Source of the DNA: an uncultured Candidatus Saccharibacteria bacterium | Lineage (GTDB): Bacteria; Patescibacteriota; Minisyncoccia; Phycocordibacterales; UBA2100 | DNA: 50,379 bases | Assembly (NCBI GenBank): GCA_964589005.1 | Contig: CAZPQI010000002.1 | Span: forward strand, 1-50,379 | Direction of reading: 5' to 3' | Shown: piece after piece, positions 1 through 46,030 of the stretch | Layout: each line of letters starts with the position of its first letter | Numbering within the stretch: position 1 is the stretch's first letter | Notes under the pieces: model-generated | Seen by the model: the letters and a program-made list of their open reading frames with translations, nothing else | Told to the model about the DNA's origin: nothing | The model's database searches: none | Made by a program: the position numbers and the translations under genes

Positions 1-53
1 TTTCAGTCGTCTTGTATACCGGCTCCGTCTTTCTCGTGCTACTGCGACGGAGA
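1..53 (-). repeat. Possible truncated copy (E0) of the tRNA-3'-linked repeat family, cut by the window edge
   Basis: Lies downstream (minus sense) of tRNA-Lys and its hairpin. It shares only the 10-nt block GAAAGACGGA that opens copies E1 and E3. The rest lies outside the window. Confidence 0.3.
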
Positions 54-91
54 AACATTAAACCCCGACTAATTAGTCGGGGTTTAATGTT
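54..91 (-). terminator. Strong hairpin directly 3' of tRNA-Lys
   Basis: Perfect 16-bp arms AACATTAAACCCCGAC / GTCGGGGTTTAATGTT around TAATTA. Confidence 0.6.
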
Positions 92-95
92 CTAG

Positions 96-168
96 TCCGC
101 CCACTAGGACTCGAACCTAGGACCCACCGCTTAAAAGGCGGTTGCTCTACCAACTGAGCTATGGGCGG
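96..168 (-). tRNA. tRNA-Lys (anticodon UUU)
   Basis: Manual cloverleaf of the reverse complement: acceptor CCGCCCA/UGGGCGG, D arm GCUC-AGUUGGU-AGAGC, anticodon stem ACCGC/GCGGU with loop CUUUUAA, T arm CUAGG-UUCGAGU-CCUAG. No CCA is encoded. Confidence 0.9.
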
Positions 169-7623: not shown

Positions 7624-7640
7624 TTAAGAACTTCTTAATC

Positions 7641-7660
7641 TGCGGAGAGGGCGAGATTCG
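7641..7660 (-). repeat. Exact 20-nt duplicate of the 3' end of tRNA-Ser (second copy at 7836-7855)
   Basis: TGCGGAGAGGGCGAGATTCG occurs at 7641-7660 and again at 7836-7855, which is half of the T loop, the T-stem 3' strand, the acceptor 3' strand and CA. Confidence 0.95.
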
Positions 7661-7776
7661 GCCACCCGTCACTAAGTATAATTTTCGTCTTCCAACTCAA
7701 TTTTACTAAGTACGCTCGACCCCGACTCAGCGCTTCTTCGTGCTTTGGCACGCGCGCTTCCGTCTTTCGAATCCAG
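7641..7776 (-). repeat. tRNA-3'-linked structured repeat, copy E1 (downstream of tRNA-Ser)
   Basis: Minus sense reads CTGGATTCGAAAGACGGAAGCGCGCGTGCCAAAGCACG...GGGGTCGAGCGTACTTAGTA...ATACTTAGTGACGGGTGGCCGAATCTCGCCCTCTCCGCA. It shares blocks with E2 and E3. The terminal stem is GGAUUCG/CGAAUC. Confidence 0.8.
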
Positions 7777-7791
7777 CTCTTAATCTACATT

Positions 7792-7833
7792 AAAACAAAA
7801 AAGATGCACCTATCAGTACATCATTTTTGTTTT
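7792..7833 (-). terminator. Hairpin directly 3' of tRNA-Ser
   Basis: 18-bp arms (2 mismatches) AAAACAAAAAAGATGCAC / GTACATCATTTTTGTTTT. Confidence 0.55.
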
Positions 7834-7837
7834 ATTG

Positions 7838-7922
7838 CGGAGAGGGCGAGATTCGAACTCGCGGTACCTTGCGGCACTCTGGTTTTCAAGACCAGTGCAT
7901 TCAACCACTCTGCCACCTCTCC
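7838..7922 (-). tRNA. tRNA-Ser (anticodon UGA), long variable arm
   Basis: Acceptor GGAGAGG/CCUCUCC, anticodon stem CUGGU/ACCAG with loop CUUGAAA, variable arm GUGCCGCAAGGUAC, T arm GCGAG-UUCGAAU-CUCGC. Confidence 0.9.
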
Positions 7923-9584: not shown

Positions 9585-10670
9585 ATGCAGGGTCTGCATA
9601 CAAATAGAATTGCAGCGCTCTTTCCGCCGCCAGAGTTTCTTGCGATGCCTTCAGCTGGTATCGATATTTCGGACACCTCCATTAAATATGTTGATGCAAC
9701 ATACTCTCGTGCAGGCTTAGTTCCGCGAGTATTTGACTCAATAAGACTTCCTAAGGGGATAGTGACCGATGGAGTTGTATCAAATGTTCCCGAGCTTGCA
9801 AAAGCGCTACGAGAATTACGCGGACAAAATGACCGACAGTTTGCCAATGTGTCACTTCCTGAAGAATTAGTATATTTGTATACACTAGAAGTTCCCACAG
9901 CGCACAAACATGAAGATATTTTGCAAATAGTCGAGTTCTCGCTAAGCGAACACGTTCCTATTCCTGTTGGTAATGCCGTTTTTAATTATGACGTCATGCG
10001 CAAACATGGTGATGTAACGGAAATAAGTGTCACCGTTTTTCCTAAAGATGTTATCGAAGGATACAAGCAAGCATTTGAGGAAAGTGGTTTTAAAGTAAAA
10101 GGATTTGAGCTCGAAGCTCAGTCGGTTGCACGATCTATTATTCCGACAGGTTCAGTTGGTGTGTCTATGGTTATTGATTTTGGGCGAACACGCACAGGAA
10201 TTACTATTGCGTTGGGGCAGGTACCTATTTTTAGCACAACAGTAAAAATTGGGGGAAATGCGCTTACTGAGGCGATTATGGAACATTATTCGGTTTCCGA
10301 AGACGATGCCGATGAAATAAAACGACAGCAAGGAATATCTGAATGTGAAGACGAAGAGCTTTGTAAAAATCTCATGGACACCACAACTGCACTTATAGAC
10401 GAAATTCGACGACACTATCGGTATTGGGACACACGCCGTGACGAAGACGGAAATAAAATTGCAGGAATAGAAAGAATTTTTCTCTGTGGAGGAGCGGTGG
10501 GGTTAAAGGGTTTACCTGAGCATGTATCGGGAGTACTACAAGTACCGGTTCGCTTGGGTAATGTGTGGGGCAACATGTTTAACCTTAATGAACATATACC
10601 AAAAGTGTCTCGTGTTATTTCTTGGCAGTACGCCACGTCCACGGGATTATTGTTACGGGATGTGATGTAG
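9585..10670 (+). CDS. pilM: Type IV pilus assembly protein PilM (actin-like ATPase fold)
   Basis: AGIDISDTSIKYV, VIDFGRTRTGITI and IFLCGGAVGLKGL match the PilM/FtsA-like phosphate and adenosine motifs. PilN/O-like bitopic proteins follow. Confidence 0.75.
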   Translation: MQGLHTNRIAALFPPPEFLAMPSAGIDISDTSIKYVDATYSRAGLVPRVFDSIRLPKGIVTDGVVSNVPELAKALRELRGQNDRQFANVSLPEELVYLYTLEVPTAHKHEDILQIVEFSLSEHVPIPVGNAVFNYDVMRKHGDVTEISVTVFPKDVIEGYKQAFEESGFKVKGFELEAQSVARSIIPTGSVGVSMVIDFGRTRTGITIALGQVPIFSTTVKIGGNALTEAIMEHYSVSEDDADEIKRQQGISECEDEELCKNLMDTTTALIDEIRRHYRYWDTRRDEDGNKIAGIERIFLCGGAVGLKGLPEHVSGVLQVPVRLGNVWGNMFNLNEHIPKVSRVISWQYATSTGLLLRDVM

Positions 10671-10683
10671 TTTTCTAGTATAT

Positions 10684-11235
10684 ATGGCAAATGTATTACC
10701 AATAAAAGATAGAAGAATATTCCGCCGAAATTATTGGCTACGGTTGTTTGTAACTTCTTCAGTAATGATTACATCCGCAATTACTGTTGGAATTGTCGCG
10801 CTTGTACCTTCGTATATTTCAGCAAAAGCAGAGCTCGCGGAAACTACTCAATACAGTGAGTTACAAGATGATGTACGTGTAGCAGATACAGTAGGTACCT
10901 CAATGGTGAGTGCTCGTTTGGCGAATGTTCAAATAAGTGAACTTACTAACGCTCTAGATATAAGTGCGGATAGGGCAATTGATTTGGTTATGAGGGACTG
11001 GTCGACTCACGCTGATAACGTAATCATTAGCGGGTTTGCATATGCAGTAACAAAAGAAAAAGAAGTGACAGTTTCTACGTTGCGGGTATCGGGTGAAGCC
11101 CTCGATAGGGCAACGCTTAATGCGTTTGTGCAAACATTGAGATCGGACCCTGCTCTTTCGGAAGTGTCGTTTCCTATTTCTGATTTAGCAGGTGGAGGTA
11201 CTCTGGATTTTTCGCTTGTAGTGAAGTTTAAATAA
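10684..11235 (+). CDS. PilN-like bitopic membrane protein
   Basis: Short basic N-terminus (NVLPIKDRRIFRRNYW), a single TM, a periplasmic domain, and position directly after pilM. Confidence 0.5.
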   Translation: MANVLPIKDRRIFRRNYWLRLFVTSSVMITSAITVGIVALVPSYISAKAELAETTQYSELQDDVRVADTVGTSMVSARLANVQISELTNALDISADRAIDLVMRDWSTHADNVIISGFAYAVTKEKEVTVSTLRVSGEALDRATLNAFVQTLRSDPALSEVSFPISDLAGGGTLDFSLVVKFK

Positions 11236-11236
11236 T

Positions 11237-11791
11237 ATGAATCTTTTCAAACACAGCACACCCTTAATGATACTTGTTGGAGTAAGTCTGGTTGCCCTGG
11301 CGATTTCGTCCGCAACGTATATGTGGCTGTTTATAAAAGTAAATGACACGATACGCGAAGTCGCTATTGTTTCAGAAAGTGCACAACTTCTTTCTGCTCA
11401 AAATGCGTATACACAAACAATTCGTAAGATAGTACGTGACACAAGCTCCGAGCGAGATAAAATAAATTCATATTTCGTAACTGATGAAGGACTCGTTTCT
11501 TTTTTAGAGAATATTGAGGGTCTGGGTACACGAGCAGGGGTAAGTCTTGAGGTGCAGTCGGTAAGTGTCGGTGACTCAATAGACAAAGATGGGCTCGTCT
11601 CTCAACTAAGGTTGTCTTTGGAAAGCGAGGGTACGATTAAGGAGATATATTATATTTTGAGTTTGTTAGAAGCCTATCCTAAGGCACTTTCTGTGCGGCG
11701 CGTACAAATGAATCAGCGGTCGGATACGCTTGCATGGGTTGGGACGTTTGATATCGAAGTAATTAAAGTTTCGATGCCAAGTGCAAATTAA
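11237..11791 (+). CDS. PilO-like bitopic membrane protein
   Basis: Single N-terminal TM followed by a coiled-coil-like segment. The call rests mainly on its position after the PilM and PilN-like genes. Confidence 0.4.
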   Translation: MNLFKHSTPLMILVGVSLVALAISSATYMWLFIKVNDTIREVAIVSESAQLLSAQNAYTQTIRKIVRDTSSERDKINSYFVTDEGLVSFLENIEGLGTRAGVSLEVQSVSVGDSIDKDGLVSQLRLSLESEGTIKEIYYILSLLEAYPKALSVRRVQMNQRSDTLAWVGTFDIEVIKVSMPSAN

Positions 11792-12175: not shown

Positions 12176-12247
12176 GTCCCCATAGTTTAATGGATAAAAC
12201 AAGAGGCTTCTATCCTCTCGATCTGGGTTCGAGTCCTGGTGGGGGCA
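12176..12247 (+). tRNA. tRNA-Arg (anticodon UCU)
   Basis: Acceptor GUCCCCA/UGGGGGC (one G-U), D arm GUUU-AAUGGAUA-AAAC, anticodon stem AGAGG/CCUCU with loop CUUCUAU, T loop UUCGAGU. Confidence 0.85.
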
Positions 12248-12445
12248 CAGCGGTAAACTAAAATTCGCTCAACTTTTGTTGAGCGAATTTTAGTTTATAA
12301 AGCAAATTGCTTTGCTTTCGACCGCTGTGTCGGGCGGAGCATGTTTTTATGACCCCACGGGAATAAAAACGGCGAGCCGGGGTCGAGCGCACTTAGTATT
12401 TTTGAGTGCAAAGCATGAAGAAAATACTTAGTGACGGGTGACCAC
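12248..12445 (+). repeat. tRNA-3'-linked structured repeat, copy E2 (downstream of tRNA-Arg-UCU)
   Basis: CAGCGGT...ACCGCTG stem enclosing a perfect 19-bp hairpin (12255-12296). This is followed by GTCGGGCGGAGCATGTTTTT...AAAAACGGCGAGCCGGGGTCGAGCGCACTTAGTA...AATACTTAGTGACGGGTGACC, which shares blocks with E1, E3 and E4. Confidence 0.8.
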
Positions 12446-15344: not shown

Positions 15345-15525
15345 GGGGACTCGGTCACAGTCACTAAGTATAATTTGCGTGCTTCGCACTTAATTCTACT
15401 AAGTGCTTCGCCCCTGTTTACTTATGAACAGAGTGAATTAGTAGAACAGGAAGTGCCCACGGGGTGCGACCCGGACTCAACGCTTTGCCGTGCTTAAGCA
15501 CGCGCGTTTCCGTCTTTCGAGTCCC
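15345..15525 (-). repeat. tRNA-3'-linked structured repeat, copy E3 (downstream of tRNA-Val)
   Basis: Minus sense reads GGGACTCGAAAGACGGAAACGCGCGTGCTTAAGCACG...GCACTTAGTAGAATTAAGTGC...TATACTTAGTGACTGTGACCGAGTCCC. The terminal stem is GGGACUCG/CGAGUCCC. It carries a 25-nt hairpin module at 15419-15443. Confidence 0.8.
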
Positions 15526-15534
15526 TAAACACTG

Positions 15535-15581
15535 TTGTATAGAAAAAGGTCGTGCGATTAGCACGACCTTTTTCTATACAA
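15535..15581 (-). terminator. Strong hairpin directly 3' of tRNA-Val
   Basis: Perfect 21-bp arms TTGTATAGAAAAAGGTCGTGC / GCACGACCTTTTTCTATACAA. Confidence 0.6.
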
Positions 15582-15583
15582 TG

Positions 15584-15657
15584 TGGGCGTTGAGGGACTC
15601 GAACCCCCGGCCTACTCGGTGTAAACGAGTTGCTCTAGCCAACTGAGCTAAACGCCC
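15584..15657 (-). tRNA. tRNA-Val (anticodon UAC)
   Basis: Acceptor GGGCGUU/AACGCCC, D arm GCUC-AGUUGGCU-AGAGC, anticodon stem ACUCG/CGAGU with loop UUUACAC, T arm GGGGG-UUCGAGU-CCCUC. Confidence 0.9.
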
Positions 15658-17838: not shown

Positions 17839-18093
17839 ATGAATATCACCAACTCCAAAAACAAAGTGACCATTATGCTTGATACACAAGTGTATGAAGG
17901 ACTACGTGCCAAAGTTGGCGCGCGTGGCATCGGTGAGTATCTTAGTAAATTAGCGCGTCCTTATGTGGTTTCAGATGATATCGAAGCAGGGTACAAAGCT
18001 ATGGCAGCTGATGATAAACATAACAAAGAAGCCAACGAATGGATTGAGGGAACGTTGTACACGTCGGATGATGAAAATGTATGGCAGTTTTAA
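17839..18093 (+). CDS. Type II antitoxin (MazE/RHH-like), partner of the MazF-like toxin
   Basis: 84-aa acidic C-terminus. Overlaps the downstream PemK/MazF gene by 13 nt. Confidence 0.65.
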   Translation: MNITNSKNKVTIMLDTQVYEGLRAKVGARGIGEYLSKLARPYVVSDDIEAGYKAMAADDKHNKEANEWIEGTLYTSDDENVWQF

Positions 18094-18419
18094 AACCCAA
18101 GAGAGGTGAGGTGAGATGGATTAATTTTGACCCGAGTGAAGGCTCAGAAACGCAAAAAACTAGGCCAGCAATTATTGTAAGTAATAATAGTGCAAATAAA
18201 TACCTAAGTCGTTTTCAGGTTATCCCGCTTACTTCAAATATAAAACAAATATATCCTTCTGAATGCTTGGTATTGGCTAGTGGGCAAAAAAGCAAAGCCA
18301 TGGCAGATCAAATTACTACCGTAGATACTATTCGCGTAGGTAAGAAGATCAGCTTCCTTTCAGGTAAAGATTTAATTTCGGTGGAACAAATAATGAAAAT
18401 ACAATTAGGCTTAGATTAG
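18081..18419 (+). CDS. mazF: MazF/PemK-family endoribonuclease toxin
   Basis: KPKRGEVRWINFDPSEGSETQKTRPAIIVSNN...VIPLTSN... is the canonical PemK pattern. Confidence 0.8.
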   Translation: MAVLKPKRGEVRWINFDPSEGSETQKTRPAIIVSNNSANKYLSRFQVIPLTSNIKQIYPSECLVLASGQKSKAMADQITTVDTIRVGKKISFLSGKDLISVEQIMKIQLGLD

Positions 18420-18472: not shown

Positions 18473-19105
18473 ATGAATAACAAAGTCATCACAAGTCCAG
18501 TAAATATGGAAGAGCGAGCGAATCTTGGCATTAAATCTGGGGACACTGTTCGTGTGTGGTTGAAGATTCAAGAAAAAGACAAAACGCGTTTACAGGCCTT
18601 CGAAGGTTTGGTGCTTGCCCGCAAACATGGAGCAGAAGCAGGGGGAACATTTACAGTACGCAAAGTTTCCAGTGGGGTAGGTGTAGAGAAAATTTTCCCA
18701 CTGTATTCGCCAATTATTGATAAAATTGAAATTGTAAAGCGAGCAAAAGTACGTCGTGCTAAGTTGTACTTTATTCGCGACAAAGTTGCTCGCGAAGTTA
18801 AACGATTATTGCGTAATACTAAGATGATGGGAATTTCTACTAAAGGTTCGCTCGAGCTTGAAGCTGAACGTAAGCAAGCTGAATCAGAAGAAAATAAACG
18901 ACAAGAGGAAGAAACAAAACGAGTAGAAGAGGAAGAGGCCGCGAAGACAACAACAGACAATGCAGACGACAGCACTGAAGAGGTAACTGAGGGCGAGTCG
19001 AAAGATGAAGCTCACGAGGAGGAGAAAAAGGAAGAAGAGAAACCAGCAGACACTGAAGAAAAAGAAGCAGAAACTCCAGAGGTGGAAGACAAGAAGAAAG
19101 AATAA
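18473..19105 (+). CDS. rplS: 50S ribosomal protein L19 with about 90-aa Glu/Lys-rich C-terminal extension
   Basis: [31 protein letters not shown]...[28 protein letters not shown] is the L19 core. The tail after about residue 120 is EEKKEE low complexity. Confidence 0.9.
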
Positions 19106-19140
19106 ACAAAACCCTACGATCGAATCGCAGGGTTTTGTTT
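19105..19140. terminator. Hairpin after rplS (17-bp arms, 1 mismatch)
   Basis: AAACAAAACCCTACGAT-CGA-ATCGCAGGGTTTTGTTT. Confidence 0.7.
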
Positions 19141-19145
19141 TATTT

Positions 19146-19240
19146 GGCGCAGGTTACTAATTCACTACGTTCATAAGTACCTCCTGCCCTGGCTCGCCCG
19201 TTTTGCTCAAGGAAAGTCGCAAAACATGACTCCGCCTCAC
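19146..19240 (-). repeat. tRNA-3'-linked structured repeat, copy E4 (downstream of tRNA-Leu; shorter)
   Basis: Minus sense reads GTGAGGCGGAGTCATGTTTTG...CAAAACGGGCGAGCCAGGGCAGG-[25-nt module]-CCTGC. It aligns with the 5' half of the E2 core. It carries the same 25-nt module as E3, in the opposite orientation. Confidence 0.7.
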
Positions 19241-19245
19241 AAATC

Positions 19246-19273
19246 TAAAAAACAGCACACAAGTGCTGTTTTT
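19246..19273 (-). terminator. Hairpin with T run directly 3' of tRNA-Leu
   Basis: AAAAACAGCAC-TTGT-GTGCTGTTTTTT in minus sense. Confidence 0.65.
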
Positions 19274-19285
19274 CTTTACGATTTG

Positions 19286-19369
19286 TGCCCAGAACTGGAG
19301 TTGAACCAGCACGCCCGTAAAGGCACATCCCCCTCAAGGATGCATGTCTACCAATTCCATCACCTGGGC
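19286..19369 (-). tRNA. tRNA-Leu (anticodon GAG), long variable arm
   Basis: Acceptor GCCCAGG/UCUGGGC, D region AUG-GAAUUGGUAGA-CAU, anticodon stem CAUCC/GGAUG with loop UUGAGGG, variable arm UGCCUUUACGGGCG, T loop UUCAACU. Confidence 0.85.
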
Positions 19370-44890: not shown

Positions 44891-44968
44891 TATACCCAGC
44901 ACTAACTTCATTGTTGTGCATCGTATGCACGCGAACTTCGTTCGACAATGAAGTTAGTGCTGGGTATA
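44891..44968. repeat. Perfect 24-bp inverted repeat enclosing two small hairpins (three-way junction)
   Basis: TATACCCAGCACTAACTTCATTGT (44891-44914) pairs with ACAATGAAGTTAGTGCTGGGTATA (44945-44968). The loop holds GTGCAT-CGT-ATGCAC and CGAAC-TTC-GTTCG. It ends 10 nt before the likely transporter ATG. Confidence 0.9.
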
Positions 44969-44977
44969 CTGCTTCCT

Positions 44978-46030
44978 ATGAACGATGTGACATTTTCTAT
45001 AACCACCGGCACGATAATACGTGTAATACTATTTCTTACAGGAGCAGCACTACTATGGTATTTGCGCGATTTGGCACTCATCGTGCTCACCTCTATTGTT
45101 ATCGCATCAGCTATTGAGCCAGCCGCTCGAGGACTTATACGATACAAAGTTCCACGTGTACTTGCGGTACTTGGTGTGTACTTACTGTTTTTTGGTACAT
45201 TTTTTGCCATCGTCTTTTTTCTTTTGCCACCAGTACTTGACGAAACATCTAATCTTCTCGCGTCACTTCCATCGTATCTTGAAACCATTGGTGCAACAGA
45301 CGCACTTACCGAAAATGCAATTCTAGAAACACGCTCACTTATAAATGGATTTACGATACAGGAAACAGCTCGTGATGTTAATTCGTTTATCACTGGTCTC
45401 TCAGGAAACTTTCTTTCCGTTATGAGCATTATTTTTGGAGGGGTAGTAAGTTTCATACTCGTTGTAGTATTTTCTTTTTATTTCGCCGTTAACGAGAGAG
45501 GTATCGAAAAGTTTTTGCGCGTACTTACACCACTAAAGCACGAAGAGTATGTATTAGACTTATGGCATCGTGCTCAAGTTAAAATTGGCTTGTGGATGCA
45601 GGGGCAGTTTTTGCTCGCGATTCTCATTGGAGTACTTACGTACTTAGGGCTTTCGATTCTAGGCATTCCATATCCGTTGGTGCTCGCAGTGATTGCAGGA
45701 GTTATGGAACTTATTCCCGTCTTTGGACCAATTCTCGCAGCAATTCCAGCAATTGCCATAGCGTTTTCGACAGGGGGTACGGGGATGGCAGTAAGTGTGA
45801 CGGTATTTTATGTAATTATTCAGCAATTTGAGAACCATCTCATTTATCCGCTGGTAGTTACTAAAGTTGTAGGAGTACCGCCTATTTTAATTATCTTGTC
45901 GCTTTTAATTGGTGCTCAGCTTGCGGGAATAATCGGTATATTACTCGCCGTTCCCATAGCAGCTGCAGCACAAGAGTTATTTACTGATATGGGAAAAGCT
46001 CGGCATCTACCTGAAAAACAAAATGGCTAG
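44978..46030 (+). CDS. AI-2E family transporter (PerM-like permease)
   Basis: Multi-TM with conserved C-terminal region ELIPVFGPILAAIPAIAIAF...IIQQFENHLIYPLVV. Start moved to ATG 44978 because the track start lies inside the 24-bp inverted repeat. Confidence 0.85.
   Translation: MNDVTFSITTGTIIRVILFLTGAALLWYLRDLALIVLTSIVIASAIEPAARGLIRYKVPRVLAVLGVYLLFFGTFFAIVFFLLPPVLDETSNLLASLPSYLETIGATDALTENAILETRSLINGFTIQETARDVNSFITGLSGNFLSVMSIIFGGVVSFILVVVFSFYFAVNERGIEKFLRVLTPLKHEEYVLDLWHRAQVKIGLWMQGQFLLAILIGVLTYLGLSILGIPYPLVLAVIAGVMELIPVFGPILAAIPAIAIAFSTGGTGMAVSVTVFYVIIQQFENHLIYPLVVTKVVGVPPILIILSLLIGAQLAGIIGILLAVPIAAAAQELFTDMGKARHLPEKQNG

What the first reader, a model, noticed from the sequence alone, without database searches (positions are those of the whole stretch)
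12248..12445. Unrecognised structured repeat family parked immediately 3' of tRNA genes (four clear loci plus one possible)
Copies, all in the same sense as the tRNA they follow: E1 7641-7776 (after tRNA-Ser), E2 12248-12445 (after tRNA-Arg-UCU), E3 15345-15525 (after tRNA-Val), E4 19146-19240 (after tRNA-Leu), and possibly E0 1-53 (after tRNA-Lys, cut by the window edge). In every case the order is tRNA, then a strong hairpin, then the element. Shared blocks: TCGAAAGACGGAA(A/G)CGCGCGTGC in E1 and E3; GGGTCGAGCG(C/T)ACTTAGTA in E1 and E2; the 3' block TACTTAGTGAC(G/T)G(G/T)TG(A/G)CC in E1, E2 and E3, with a 17-nt identical run GTCACTAAGTATAATTT on the + strand of E1 and E3; and GGCGGAG..CATGTTTT...AAAACGG.GAGCC in E2 and E4. 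Helices are kept by compensatory changes. The terminal stem is GGAUUCG/CGAAUC in E1 and GGGACUCG/CGAGUCCC in E3. AGCGC...GCGCU in E1 becomes AACGC...GCGUU in E3, around an invariant CGUGC-loop-GCACG hairpin. GUUUUU/AAAAAC in E2 becomes GUUUUG/CAAAAC in E4. No ORF is conserved across copies. I cannot match the family to tmRNA, RNase P, SRP, 6S, a T-box or a known ribozyme core. The two ends of E1 and E3 mimic the two halves of a tRNA T loop (GGAYTCGAA ... CGARTC). That fits either a tRNA-targeting miniature mobile element or a co-transcribed tRNA-trailer RNA.
Basis: seen in the sequence. Interest (0 to 1): 0.85.

Follow-up and report, generated by a model that had tools for sequence, protein, structure and literature searches.

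The report
Mobile structured RNA element at tRNA ends
The window holds four and a half copies of an undescribed, about 100-base folded RNA element that is common in Patescibacteria, inserts at the 3' ends of tRNA, tmRNA and a few highly conserved protein genes, and on inserting copies the end of the target gene both backwards and forwards, which no known kind of mobile element does.

Summary
E1, E2, E3 and E4 share a roughly 100-nt core. E0 is cut by the window edge. A covariance model built from 71 relatives scores the four at 40-75 bits. Across 142 copies, 95% of cells are paired, all 26 pairs show compensatory changes, and slid-partner controls collapse. Rfam gives no match, even at E<=10.

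The family occurs in well over 100 Patescibacteria species (mostly Paceibacteria), often several copies per genome. In an unbiased 708-kb sample, 19 of 22 copies lie 47-260 nt 3' of a same-strand tRNA. It also follows tmRNA, rplL, rplB, rplE, rpsI, ftsZ, topA and dnaJ.

The variable "terminal stem" is not a conserved helix. Its 5' arm is an antisense copy of the target gene's 3' end. Its 3' arm is a sense duplicate of that end.

An empty-versus-filled site pair shows a clean 191-nt insertion with a 20-nt target duplication. Near-identical cores sit at different tRNAs.

Best reading: a non-autonomous mobile element whose arms are templated by the target. The enzyme or ribozyme that moves it is unknown. 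This looks like a new kind of element.

The parts
1..29 (-). E0 core, first ~29 nt only (GACGGAGCCGGUAUACAAGA...), cut by the window edge
   Evidence: GAAAGACGGA at 33-24. The same 24 nt follow a tRNA-Val in L118. Sequence.
30..53 (-). E0 antisense arm (a'). A degenerate complement of the tRNA-Lys T loop and acceptor 3' strand.
   Evidence: Read. Compare L086, which has a similarly imperfect arm.
54..91 (-). E0 terminator-like palindrome between tRNA-Lys and the element
   Evidence: Inverted repeat I20, 19+19 nt, 100% complementary
95..168 (-). tRNA-Lys(UUU), target of E0
7633..7660 (-). E1 distal sense duplicate. CGAATCTCGCCCTCTCCGCA (7660-7641) is the tRNA-Ser T loop C56 to 3' end. It is followed by the native trailer GATTAAGA (7640-7633).
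   Evidence: Identical 20 nt at 7855-7836. GATTAAGA is also present at 7785-7778.
7659..7764 (-). E1 core: P1/P2 hairpin arm and P3/P4 hairpin arm
   Evidence: Model R1, 72.9 bits, E 3e-13
7766..7774 (-). E1 antisense arm a' (GGATTCGAA). Complement of the tRNA-Ser T loop and T stem 3' strand, 1 nt before P1.
   Evidence: Family-wide statistics.
7786..7835 (-). E1 terminator-like palindrome. It lies between the tRNA end and the duplicated native trailer.
   Evidence: Inverted repeat I22; terminator-like site 7822-7803
7837..7922 (-). tRNA-Ser(UGA), target of E1. Its last 20 nt are the proximal copy of the duplication.
12176..12248 (+). tRNA-Arg(UCU), target of E2
12254..12297 (+). E2 terminator-like palindrome
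   Evidence: Inverted repeat I14, 20+20 nt, 100%
12300..12320 (+). E2 second hairpin H2 (AAGCAAAUUGCUUUGCUUUCG). A module that recurs in many relatives.
   Evidence: The same hairpin type is seen in L019, L031, L048, L073, L076 and L088.
12321..12329 (+). E2 antisense arm a' (ACCGCTGTG). Complement of the last nucleotides of the tRNA plus the start of its trailer (CACAGCGGT, 12246-12254).
12333..12444 (+). E2 core. This is the finding's own coordinates, minus the hairpins.
   Evidence: R1, 75.3 bits, E 1e-13. The single-sequence fold reproduces P1/P2 and P3/P4, z = -4.0.
15345..15353 (-). E3 distal sense duplicate (CGAGTCCC, = tRNA-Val 15601-15594)
15353..15514 (-). E3 core with an extra inserted domain (about 15400-15452) between P1/P2 and P3/P4
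   Evidence: R1 hits 15352-15447 (41.9 bits) and 15453-15514. The 58-nt block is 84% identical to E1. A similar optional domain occurs in L052 and L089.
15516..15525 (-). E3 antisense arm a' (GGGACTCGAA)
15535..15581 (-). E3 terminator-like palindrome
   Evidence: Inverted repeat I10, 21+21 nt, 100%
15583..15657 (-). tRNA-Val(UAC), target of E3
19142..19146 (-). E4 short distal duplicate (CAAAT = tRNA-Leu last nucleotide plus trailer, 19285-19281). The native bidirectional terminator follows at 19104-19140.
19146..19236 (-). E4 core, the minimal form with a divergent P4
   Evidence: R1, 39.7 bits, E 2e-6; fold
19238..19246 (-). E4 antisense arm a' (AGATTTGTG, complement of CACAAATC at 19287-19280)
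19247..19274 (-). E4 terminator-like hairpin
19285..19369 (-). tRNA-Leu(GAG), target of E4

Best explanation
The copies belong to a family of small (0.1-0.2 kb), protein-less mobile elements of Patescibacteria.

The constant part is a ~100-nt core that folds, on the strand co-oriented with the upstream gene, into two arms:
- P1/P2: GNC-GGA...GA-GNC around a variable hairpin.
- P3/P4: GGUC...GACC around a long hairpin whose commonest form is CACUUAGUA/UACUUAGUG with a central U.U.

The element lands in the last 5-65 nt of a heavily transcribed, highly conserved gene. Most targets are tRNAs, either at T-loop position 55/56 or right at the 3' terminus. It also lands in tmRNA and in ribosomal-protein, ftsZ, topA and dnaJ genes.

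A filled site reads as follows:
1. The intact gene end.
2. A trailer or terminator hairpin, sometimes with a second hairpin.
3. An antisense copy (a') of the gene end, stopping 1 nt before P1.
4. The core.
5. A second sense copy of the gene end.

The target is therefore present forward, inverted, then forward again. The gene stays whole and keeps a terminator, so the insertion is harmless.

Shown directly: the fold, the distribution, the insertion polymorphism, the target origin of both arms, and fast retargeting.

Inferred: the arms are made from the target during insertion, by a template-switching or snap-back copying step (most simply a reverse transcriptase or repair polymerase acting in trans on a read-through transcript of the element). 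The conserved core would then be the part that this machinery recognises. The element is expressed only by read-through from the host gene. Between genomes it spreads by recombination through the conserved gene sequence it carries.
For: Fold:
- Alignment of 71 cores gives 26 pairs, 16 with compensatory change.
- On 142 model hits, 95.4% of cells are paired against 72% in shuffles. All 26 pairs have double changes. The covariation score is 0.529, against <=0.061 when partners are slid by 1-3 columns.
- G.U pairs number 105 against 25 A.C, which places the structure on the sense strand.

Distribution:
- More than 115 pattern matches in GTDB species genomes, almost all Patescibacteria MAGs, often several per genome.
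- 142 model hits in 100 loci.
- Only one hit in viral contigs, and it is a chance match.

Target association:
- In 80 loci chosen through an unrelated protein (708 kb, 164 tRNAs), 19 of 22 hits lie 47-260 nt 3' of a same-strand tRNA, and 17 tRNAs are occupied.
- tmRNA and intron-containing tRNAs are also targets.
- Protein targets were confirmed by Pfam.

Mobility:
- L004 (empty) versus L005/L075 (filled) differ by one 191-nt block flanked by a 20-nt duplication.
- Occupancy of the tRNA-Val next to uppS is patchy, with tandem arrays of different subtypes.

Target-derived arms:
- A direct repeat of >=8 nt is present in 71 of 162 copies. It starts at tRNA position 56 in 24 copies and 1-2 nt upstream of it in 9 more.
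- The longest perfect complement of a' to its own tRNA has a median of 10 nt, against 5 nt to other tRNAs. a' ends 1 nt before P1 in 79 of 110 copies.
- At protein targets a' matches the proximal copy over 9-12 nt.
- The distal copies of ftsZ and rplL ends keep the peptide and the stop codon through 10/1, 10/1, 5/1 and 4/0 synonymous versus other changes, as expected of a displaced native gene end.

Fast retargeting: the nearest-neighbour core (85-94% identical) sits at a different tRNA species in 86 of 95 cases.

No partner gene: no recurrent neighbouring protein family in 115 loci, and only housekeeping genes in the window.
Against: - No enzyme has been identified, so the copying step is pure inference.
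- In L086 the direct duplication is fresh (about 65 nt, 95% identical) yet a' has two mismatches and an indel. That fits an arm carried by the element better than one made on the spot.
- Terminator-like hairpins precede every window copy. If they terminate efficiently, little element RNA would be made.
- The strong sequence conservation of unpaired core positions (CGGA, GAG, G-rich joiner) would also fit a catalytic or host-serving RNA.
- Covariation cannot separate RNA from top-strand single-stranded DNA.
- Most evidence comes from metagenome-assembled genomes. Only one clean empty/filled pair was found, and the closest relatives of the window genome share just 76% UppS identity.
Confidence: 0.55

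Rival explanations
1. Intron-like or self-mobile ribozyme. The unit from the start of the proximal gene-end copy to the end of the core would be an RNA that excises itself. The antisense arm a' would act as an internal guide, pairing across the 5' junction (2 nt of exon plus the unit's own start) and, alternatively, with the distal copy (3' exon). Splicing would rejoin the gene to its distal end. Reverse splicing into abundant transcripts or into the displaced DNA strand, followed by reverse transcription, would give new copies.
For: - a' spans the insertion point, pairing with 2 nt to the left of the duplicated segment in 23 of 37 clear cases. It sits 1 nt from P1, and the distal copy starts directly after P3. 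Both junctions therefore meet at one multi-helix junction.
- Unpaired core nucleotides are strongly conserved even in the 42 copies found without the search pattern.
- Targets are the most abundant transcripts.
- Distal copies of protein-gene ends remain translatable.
- In fresh copies the duplication runs to the end of the native terminator, which is the transcript's 3' end.
Against: - No resemblance to any catalytic RNA family in Rfam, even at E<=10.
- A ~100-nt core is small for a splicing ribozyme.
- Distal tRNA copies decay (L014, L087, L004, L044), and one rplL distal copy is frameshifted (L021). Use of the distal end is therefore not required.
- A plain intron needs no proximal duplicate and no internal terminator.
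- Reverse splicing would carry the old arms to a new site. Instead, near-identical cores have arms that perfectly match different tRNAs.
Confidence: 0.17
2. Host-serving 3'-trailer RNA. The core would be a functional small RNA or cis-acting processing, stability or termination module that is co-transcribed with tRNAs and highly expressed genes and has been recruited repeatedly. The antisense arm would pair with the gene's 3' end in read-through transcripts to direct their processing or decay.
For: - Same-strand position directly after the gene in every case.
- No independent promoter was detected.
- Strong purifying selection on sequence and structure across many lineages.
- a' pairs with the functional (proximal) gene end rather than with the remnant.
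Against: - Only about 10% of tRNAs carry it in an unbiased sample, and occupancy of the same tRNA differs between relatives.
- There are tandem arrays, truncated copies and decayed copies.
- The clean insertion with target duplication needs a mobility mechanism anyway.
- Two of seven tRNAs in the window do without it.
Confidence: 0.13
3. Leftovers or miniature derivatives of classical integrase-driven integrative elements. A tyrosine or serine integrase would integrate a circle carrying the gene's 3' end (attP) into tRNA, tmRNA or protein-gene ends. The copies would be cis-mobilisable or decayed versions.
For: - The direct repeat of the tRNA T loop to 3' end is the hallmark of such integration.
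- tmRNA and the ends of conserved genes are classic integration sites.
- The proximal copy differs from the native distal copy at synonymous sites, as expected if it was imported.
Against: - One conserved core is associated with more than 20 tRNA species and several protein genes, whereas an integrase lineage recognises one site.
- No integrase lies next to any of 115 loci.
- Duplication length varies from 4 to about 65 nt.
- Integrase chemistry explains neither the antisense arm nor the covarying RNA-like fold with its G.U excess.
Confidence: 0.07
4. Single-stranded-DNA transposon derivative (IS200/IS605, REPIN/RAYT-like). A Y1 HUH transposase would mobilise it in trans. The hairpins would be the recognised DNA structures, and a' would be an extended version of the guide sequence that pairs with the cleavage or target site.
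For: - Strand-specific hairpins.
- A guide-like segment next to a hairpin foot that pairs with the flank.
- Non-autonomous, multi-copy behaviour.
Against: - That family makes no target duplication and inserts next to a fixed 4-5 nt motif. Here duplications are long and variable and the targets are diverse.
- Orientation follows the host gene's transcription, not one replication strand. Window copies lie on both strands of a region with uniform GC skew.
- No tnpA or RAYT gene in the window or near 115 loci.
Confidence: 0.05

Closest known systems
Integrative elements that target the 3' end of tRNA/tmRNA genes (phage and island integrases, tycheposons)
   Same: Insertion from the T loop onwards. 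A direct repeat of the tRNA 3' end. The gene is kept intact by a replacement end. tmRNA and the ends of conserved genes are also used.
   Different: The element is 0.1-0.2 kb with no integrase or cargo. One core goes with dozens of different sites. There is an extra antisense copy of the target. Duplication length is variable. The core has a covarying RNA-type fold.
Bacterial class C group II introns
   Same: Sit in the sense orientation just after terminator hairpins at gene ends. The target is chosen partly by base pairing. Mobile through RNA.
   Different: No domain V/VI and no reverse-transcriptase ORF. No Rfam intron match. The core is about 100 nt. The target is duplicated, which retrohoming does not do.
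Guide-carrying transposon RNAs (IS110/IS1111 bridge or seek RNA; IS200/605 TnpB and IscB omega RNA, HEARO)
   Same: A structured non-coding RNA scaffold with an adjacent segment complementary or identical to the flanking target. Multi-copy.
   Different: No recombinase or nuclease gene next to any copy. No Rfam HEARO or IS605 motif match. These systems make no long target duplication. Here the arm seems to be made from the target rather than to select it.
Free-standing homing-endonuclease insertions that carry a duplicate of the host gene's 3' end (fungal mitochondrial atp6/cox cases; recalled from memory)
   Same: The gene's 3' end is present twice. One copy is functional and one is displaced, and they differ mostly at synonymous sites. 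Spread between genomes goes through conserved gene sequence.
   Different: No ORF at all. tRNA genes are the main targets. The antisense arm and the structured RNA core have no counterpart.
MITEs / REPINs and other small bacterial repeats
   Same: Short, non-autonomous, many copies, hairpin-rich, intergenic.
   Different: No constant terminal inverted repeats. No fixed-length duplication. The ends differ at every site because they are target-derived. Strict sense orientation behind the host gene.
Small ribozymes placed directly 3' of tRNAs (HDV-like theta ribozymes of gut phages; recalled from memory)
   Same: A compact structured RNA immediately downstream of, and co-transcribed with, tRNAs.
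   Different: No HDV-like, hammerhead, twister, pistol or hatchet match. Chromosomal rather than viral. Flanked by target copies. Also found at protein genes.

Membership tests
Any Rfam 15 RNA family (ribozymes, introns, HEARO/IS605 motifs, tmRNA, RNase P, 6S, T-box, riboswitches) | Match to the family covariance model | tested here: not met
   At gathering thresholds only tRNAs are found. At E<=10 nothing overlaps the cores except chance-level microRNA and leader hits over hairpins.
Group II intron (class C) | Domain V/VI catalytic hairpins and GUGYG...AY boundaries | tested here: not met
   No intron model match. The core consensus has neither feature.
Group II intron (class C) | Position just after a terminator hairpin, in the sense orientation | tested here: met
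Integrase-mediated integrative element | Direct repeat of the tRNA/tmRNA 3' end flanking the insert | tested here: met
Integrase-mediated integrative element | Integrase gene in the element, or one site per element lineage | tested here: not met
   No recurrent neighbouring protein. Nearest-neighbour cores sit at different tRNAs in 86 of 95 cases.
IS110/IS1111 bridge (seek) RNA | Encoded in the non-coding end of an element that carries a DEDD/RuvC-like recombinase | tested here: not met
   No adjacent ORF family. Window genes are housekeeping only.
IS110/IS1111 bridge (seek) RNA | Two internal loops that pair with target and donor; no long target duplication | tested here: not met
   There is a single target-complementary arm, outside the core. 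Duplications are 4-65 nt.
TnpB / IscB omega RNA | Overlaps or abuts a tnpB/iscB gene, with the guide formed by flanking DNA | tested here: not met
   No such gene nearby. The flank-derived segment is present, but so is its antisense copy.
IS200/IS605-type ssDNA transposon or REPIN | No target duplication; insertion 3' of a fixed tetra- or pentanucleotide | tested here: not met
IS200/IS605-type ssDNA transposon or REPIN | Y1 HUH transposase or RAYT present in the genome | not testable with these tools
   Whole genomes could not be fetched. None is present in the window or in the 8-kb loci.
MITE | Constant terminal inverted repeats and a fixed-length target-site duplication | tested here: not met
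   The arms differ with each target. Duplication length is variable.
Self-cleaving or self-splicing ribozyme (new class) | Site-specific cleavage or ligation by the RNA alone | not testable with these tools
   Needs in vitro transcription assays. Only the geometry is suggestive.
Structured non-coding RNA (generic) | Base pairs maintained by compensatory substitutions beyond the controls | tested here: met

The most novel reading that the evidence does not exclude
The core is a catalytic or self-templating RNA. On this reading it would be a new class of mobile ribozyme or retro-element that attaches itself to the 3' ends of abundant transcripts or their genes. It would use or create a guide from the target itself, and protect the host gene by duplicating its end plus a terminator. 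That would be a third strategy, beside introns and inteins, for a selfish element to live inside essential genes.
Probability: 0.2. Interest if true: 0.95.

Novelty: categorically new. Interest (0 to 1): 0.85.

Why it matters
Patescibacteria make up a large share of bacterial diversity, have tiny genomes and were thought to be poor in mobile DNA. Here a roughly 100-nt folded element occupies about a tenth of tRNA genes in relatives of this genome and five of seven in this window. It has also entered tmRNA, ribosomal-protein, ftsZ, topA and dnaJ genes without breaking them.

The forward-inverted-forward copying of the target implies an insertion chemistry that has not been described. If the arm is a guide, or is written from the target, the system is a candidate for a compact programmable insertion mechanism. 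If the core is catalytic, it is a new ribozyme class.

Practical consequences:
- The family should be added to RNA and repeat libraries.
- Its duplicated tRNA ends can mislead tRNA and pseudogene annotation and the prediction of genomic islands in CPR genomes.

Tried and rejected
- Rfam at gathering and at E<=10: no family.
- Literature searches by taxon, by context and by the sequence motif itself: nothing relevant.
- Looking for an autonomous copy or partner protein. ORFs within 4 kb of 115 copies were clustered; the best family occurs in only 11 loci, at scattered positions. Pfam on some 40 window ORFs gave only housekeeping functions.
- Viral contigs: one hit, a chance match in coding-like sequence on a contig that ends in a sequencing adapter.
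- Exact look-up of the window's UppS for sister strains: not on record. The closest relatives found share only 76% identity, so strain-level empty sites for the window's own copies could not be obtained.
- Independent promoters for the elements: none above background.
- The idea that core subfamilies correspond to insertion type (T loop versus 3' terminus). Rejected because 93%-identical cores occur in both types.
- The idea that terminator hairpins with CUGC loops always belong to the element. Not general, because in fresh copies the hairpin is simply part of the duplicated native sequence.
- Hammerhead, HDV-like and K-turn readings of the junction and of the GGA/GA internal loop were considered by eye. 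The order and lengths of the joining strands do not fit.
- I could not derive a fully consistent step-by-step model from target-primed reverse transcription, fold-back priming or reverse splicing alone. Each explains some junctions but not all.
Full report
**What is in the window**

ARAGORN and Rfam place seven tRNA genes in the first 20 kb.

| Copy | Upstream tRNA |
|---|---|
| E0 | Lys-UUU |
| E1 | Ser-UGA |
| E2 | Arg-UCU |
| E3 | Val-UAC |
| E4 | Leu-GAG |

The shared blocks are real. E1/E3 share 58 nt at 84%, E2/E3 47 nt at 79%, E1/E2 41 nt at 80%, and E3/E4 25 nt at 92%. tRNA-Arg-GCG and tRNA-His have only an ordinary hairpin after them. The rest of the window is housekeeping: murein ligase, RuvA/RuvX, pilus genes, UppS, L19, aminoacyl-tRNA synthetases and the like. 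There is no transposase, integrase or reverse transcriptase.

**It is a large family with a well-supported fold**

Almost all are Patescibacteria MAGs (Paceibacteria/Parcubacteria, Kaiser-, Campbell-, Wolfe-, Nomura- and Lloydbacteria), often with several hits per genome.

Seventy-one trimmed cores align into two arms:
- P1 is GNC paired with GNC, enclosing a GGA/GA internal loop and a variable hairpin P2.
- P3 is GGUC/GACC, enclosing the long hairpin P4.

A covariance model built from that alignment recovers E2 at 75 bits, E1 at 73, E3 at 42 and E4 at 40, and nothing else credible in the window. It finds 142 copies in 100 loci.

On those 142 copies:
- 95.4% of cells form standard pairs, against 72% after shuffling.
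- All 26 pairs show changes on both sides.
- The covariation score is 0.529, against at most 0.061 when the 3' partners are slid by 1-3 columns.
- None of 500 shuffles reaches the observed values.

G.U pairs outnumber A.C by 105 to 25, so the structure belongs to the strand that is co-oriented with the upstream gene. Single-sequence folds of E2 and E4 give the same helices. The 42 copies that do not match the search pattern keep the same unpaired CGGA, GAG and G-rich joiner. Variant cores with an unrelated P4 sequence exist (L125, L131, L134), so the family is wider than the pattern.

Rfam 15 has no match, even at E<=10. Five literature searches found nothing, including one for the motif itself.

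**Where it sits**

Of 162 model hits, 115 have a same-strand tRNA within 600 nt upstream. All isoacceptor families are represented.

To remove ascertainment bias I fetched 80 loci through an unrelated protein, UppS. In their 708 kb and 164 tRNAs the model finds 22 copies. Nineteen lie 47-260 nt 3' of a same-strand tRNA, and 17 tRNAs (10%) are occupied, some twice.

Copies that seemed to lack a tRNA fall into three groups:
- After tmRNA: L053, L060, L090, L115.
- After tRNA genes split by a group I intron, which ARAGORN misses: L016, L101.
- After the stop codons of rplL, rplB, rplE, rpsI, ftsZ, a topoisomerase zinc-ribbon gene and dnaJ.

So the link to tRNAs is strong but not exclusive. The common denominator is the 3' end of a highly expressed, highly conserved gene, always in the sense orientation.

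**The variable ends are copies of the target**

In E1 the last 20 nt of the element (7660-7641) are identical to tRNA-Ser from T-loop C56 to two bases past the discriminator (7855-7836). The next eight bases of native trailer (GATTAAGA) are duplicated too. The 5' arm GGATTCGAA is the complement of the T loop and stem.

The same holds family-wide:
- An exact direct repeat of at least 8 nt (up to more than 30) links the 3' flank to the upstream gene in 71 of 162 copies. It starts at tRNA position 56 in 24 copies and 1-2 nt upstream of it in nine more.
- In a second class the duplication starts at the last few bases of the tRNA. E2 and E4 belong here; E4 has CAAAT.
- The 30 nt before the core contain a perfect complement of the copy's own tRNA 3' end with a median length of 10 nt, against 5 nt for other tRNAs. 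This complement ends exactly 1 nt before P1 in 79 of 110 copies.
- Where both boundaries are clear, the antisense arm covers 2 nt to the left of the duplicated segment in 23 of 37 cases.
- In many copies the antisense arm is continuous with the 3' strand of the terminator hairpin, which gives perfect palindromes of up to 28 bp. Often a second conserved hairpin, H2, interrupts it.

A filled site therefore reads: gene end (forward), hairpin, gene end (inverted), core, gene end (forward).

**It is an insertion**

Two different species carry the same tRNA-Gln. In L004 the tRNA is followed directly by AGTGCACACGAA... In L005 the same flank follows the distal duplicate. The only difference between them is a 191-nt block running from C56 of the proximal copy to the end of the core, bounded by a 20-nt duplication.

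The tRNA-Val next to uppS is empty in six relatives. In seven others it is filled with different subtypes, sometimes two or three in tandem or as truncated remnants. Perfect tandem units (L020, L087) and mixed tandems (L121, L133) show that an occupied gene end can be hit again.

In fresh copies the duplication runs through the whole native terminator: about 65 nt at 95% identity in L086 and 42 nt identical in L036. In older tRNA copies the distal duplicate decays (L004, L014, L044, L087).

**Protein targets**

At protein genes the two copies of the gene end differ almost only at synonymous sites, and both keep the stop codon:

| Locus | Gene | Synonymous / other differences |
|---|---|---|
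| L009 | ftsZ | 10 / 1 |
| L095 | ftsZ | 10 / 1 |
| L081 | ftsZ | 5 / 1, including an AGT-to-TCT serine switch |
| L003 | rplL | 4 / 0 |

The antisense arm matches the proximal copy over 9-12 nt but the distal copy over only 4-9 nt. The simplest reading is that the distal copy is the displaced native end. The proximal copy and the arm would then travel together with the element between genomes through the conserved gene sequence. One rplL distal copy is already frameshifted (L021), so the distal copy is not generally needed.

**Retargeting is fast**

For 95 tRNA-linked cores, the most similar core in another locus (85-94% identity, loops included) sits at a different tRNA species in 86 cases. 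One example is a 93% pair in which one copy lies at the 3' terminus of tRNA-Trp and the other in the T loop of tRNA-Leu. Their arms are each perfect for their own tRNA.

The arms must therefore be written from the target at or soon after insertion. They cannot have evolved slowly as guides. One counter-example is L086, which has a fresh duplication but an imperfect arm. It leaves room for an arm that is carried and tolerates mismatches.

**How it probably works**

Shown:
- A conserved sense-strand fold.
- Insertion with duplication of the target.
- An inverted target copy abutting P1.
- No linked protein gene.
- No independent promoter above background.
- Orientation tied to host transcription rather than to one replication strand. 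Window copies lie on both strands while GC skew is uniform.

Inferred:
- The element is expressed by read-through of the host gene.
- A trans-acting polymerase with template-switching or snap-back ability copies it into the ends of highly transcribed genes. A reverse transcriptase is the simplest candidate.
- The forward-inverted-forward pattern is the footprint of two template switches, with the core laid down at the second switch.
- The duplicated gene end plus hairpin keeps the host gene functional.
- The conserved gene sequence then serves as homology for spread between genomes.

I could not build a step-by-step scheme that explains every junction. The enzyme is unknown, and this part is a hypothesis.

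The main rival is that the core is itself catalytic, an intron-like or self-inserting ribozyme. In its favour, the arm spans the junction, both junctions meet at one multi-helix junction, and unpaired nucleotides are highly conserved. Against it stand the lack of any ribozyme match, the decay of distal copies, and the fact that reverse splicing would carry old arms to new sites. A host-serving trailer RNA, integrase remnants and an IS200/605-like single-stranded-DNA element were also considered. Each fails at least one tested feature (see the membership table).

**Verdict**

I found no described family that combines a covarying ~100-nt core, target-derived inverted and direct arms, and a preference for the 3' ends of tRNA, tmRNA and conserved protein genes. 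I rate it as a new kind of element, with high interest. The caveats are that all evidence is comparative, that most of it comes from metagenome-assembled genomes, and that the mobility mechanism is unresolved.

Noticed in passing
L016:181-483 (+) and L101:7756-8000 (-): Group I catalytic introns (Rfam RF00028, 65 and 59 bits) interrupt tRNA genes in two Paceibacteria genomes. ARAGORN misses these tRNAs. The element studied here sits after their 3' exons.
   Followed up: partly
window 17839-18419 (+): A MazF/PemK-type toxin gene (18081-18419, Pfam PF02452) overlaps by 13 nt the end of a preceding 84-aa ORF (17839-18093), the usual position of an antitoxin gene. It is a likely type II toxin-antitoxin pair between the pseudouridine synthase gene and rplS.
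   Followed up: no
window 44891-44968: A perfect 24-nt inverted repeat with a 30-nt spacer overlaps the start of the AI-2E family transporter gene (44948-46030). The element model gives only chance-level scores here (16 and 12 bits), so it is an unrelated hairpin of unknown role.
   Followed up: no
window 15400-15452 (-); also L052 and L089: E3 carries an optional extra domain (GGGCACUUCC...UCUAAYUC...) inserted between the two arms of the core. A similar insert recurs in copies from other genomes. A different large insert (GGGCGUAGAUUCUGU...ACAGAAUCAAGUGC) recurs in L038 and L077, and in L077 it contains tandem repeats.
   Followed up: partly
L080, about 60 nt after the core: The distal duplicate of the tRNA-Arg terminator is interrupted by a 49-nt perfect palindrome (TTAATTTAGGTATATAATTAGGTATATACCTAATTATATACCTAAATTAA). 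This looks like another small inserted repeat.
   Followed up: no
window 7786-7835 (-): In E1 the terminator-like palindrome lies exactly between the end of tRNA-Ser and a copy of the native trailer (GATTAAGAG), while the distal copy has tRNA end and trailer contiguous. The hairpin therefore looks like a separate insertion, or a part of the element that the native locus never had. Many such hairpins and the H2 hairpin share a CUGC-type loop.
   Followed up: partly
L196:13190-13234: The only viral-contig pattern hit is a chance match. The contig end also carries a Nextera transposase adapter sequence (AGATGTGTATAAGAGACAG), which is an assembly contaminant.
   Followed up: yes
L051 (Patiriisocius sp. 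MAG) and L055 (Elulimicrobium sp. MAG): Two short contigs binned into non-Patescibacteria MAGs carry typical copies, the one in L051 after an rplB gene. They are probably mis-binned Patescibacteria contigs rather than evidence of a wider host range. The Calothrix hit (L065) is a chance match inside coding sequence.
   Followed up: partly
window 9585-11791 (+): A type IV pilus assembly cluster (PilM and a PilN-like gene, followed by two ORFs with no Pfam match) lies directly upstream of tRNA-Arg-UCU. It may be relevant to DNA uptake in these bacteria and hence to spread of the element between genomes.
   Followed up: no
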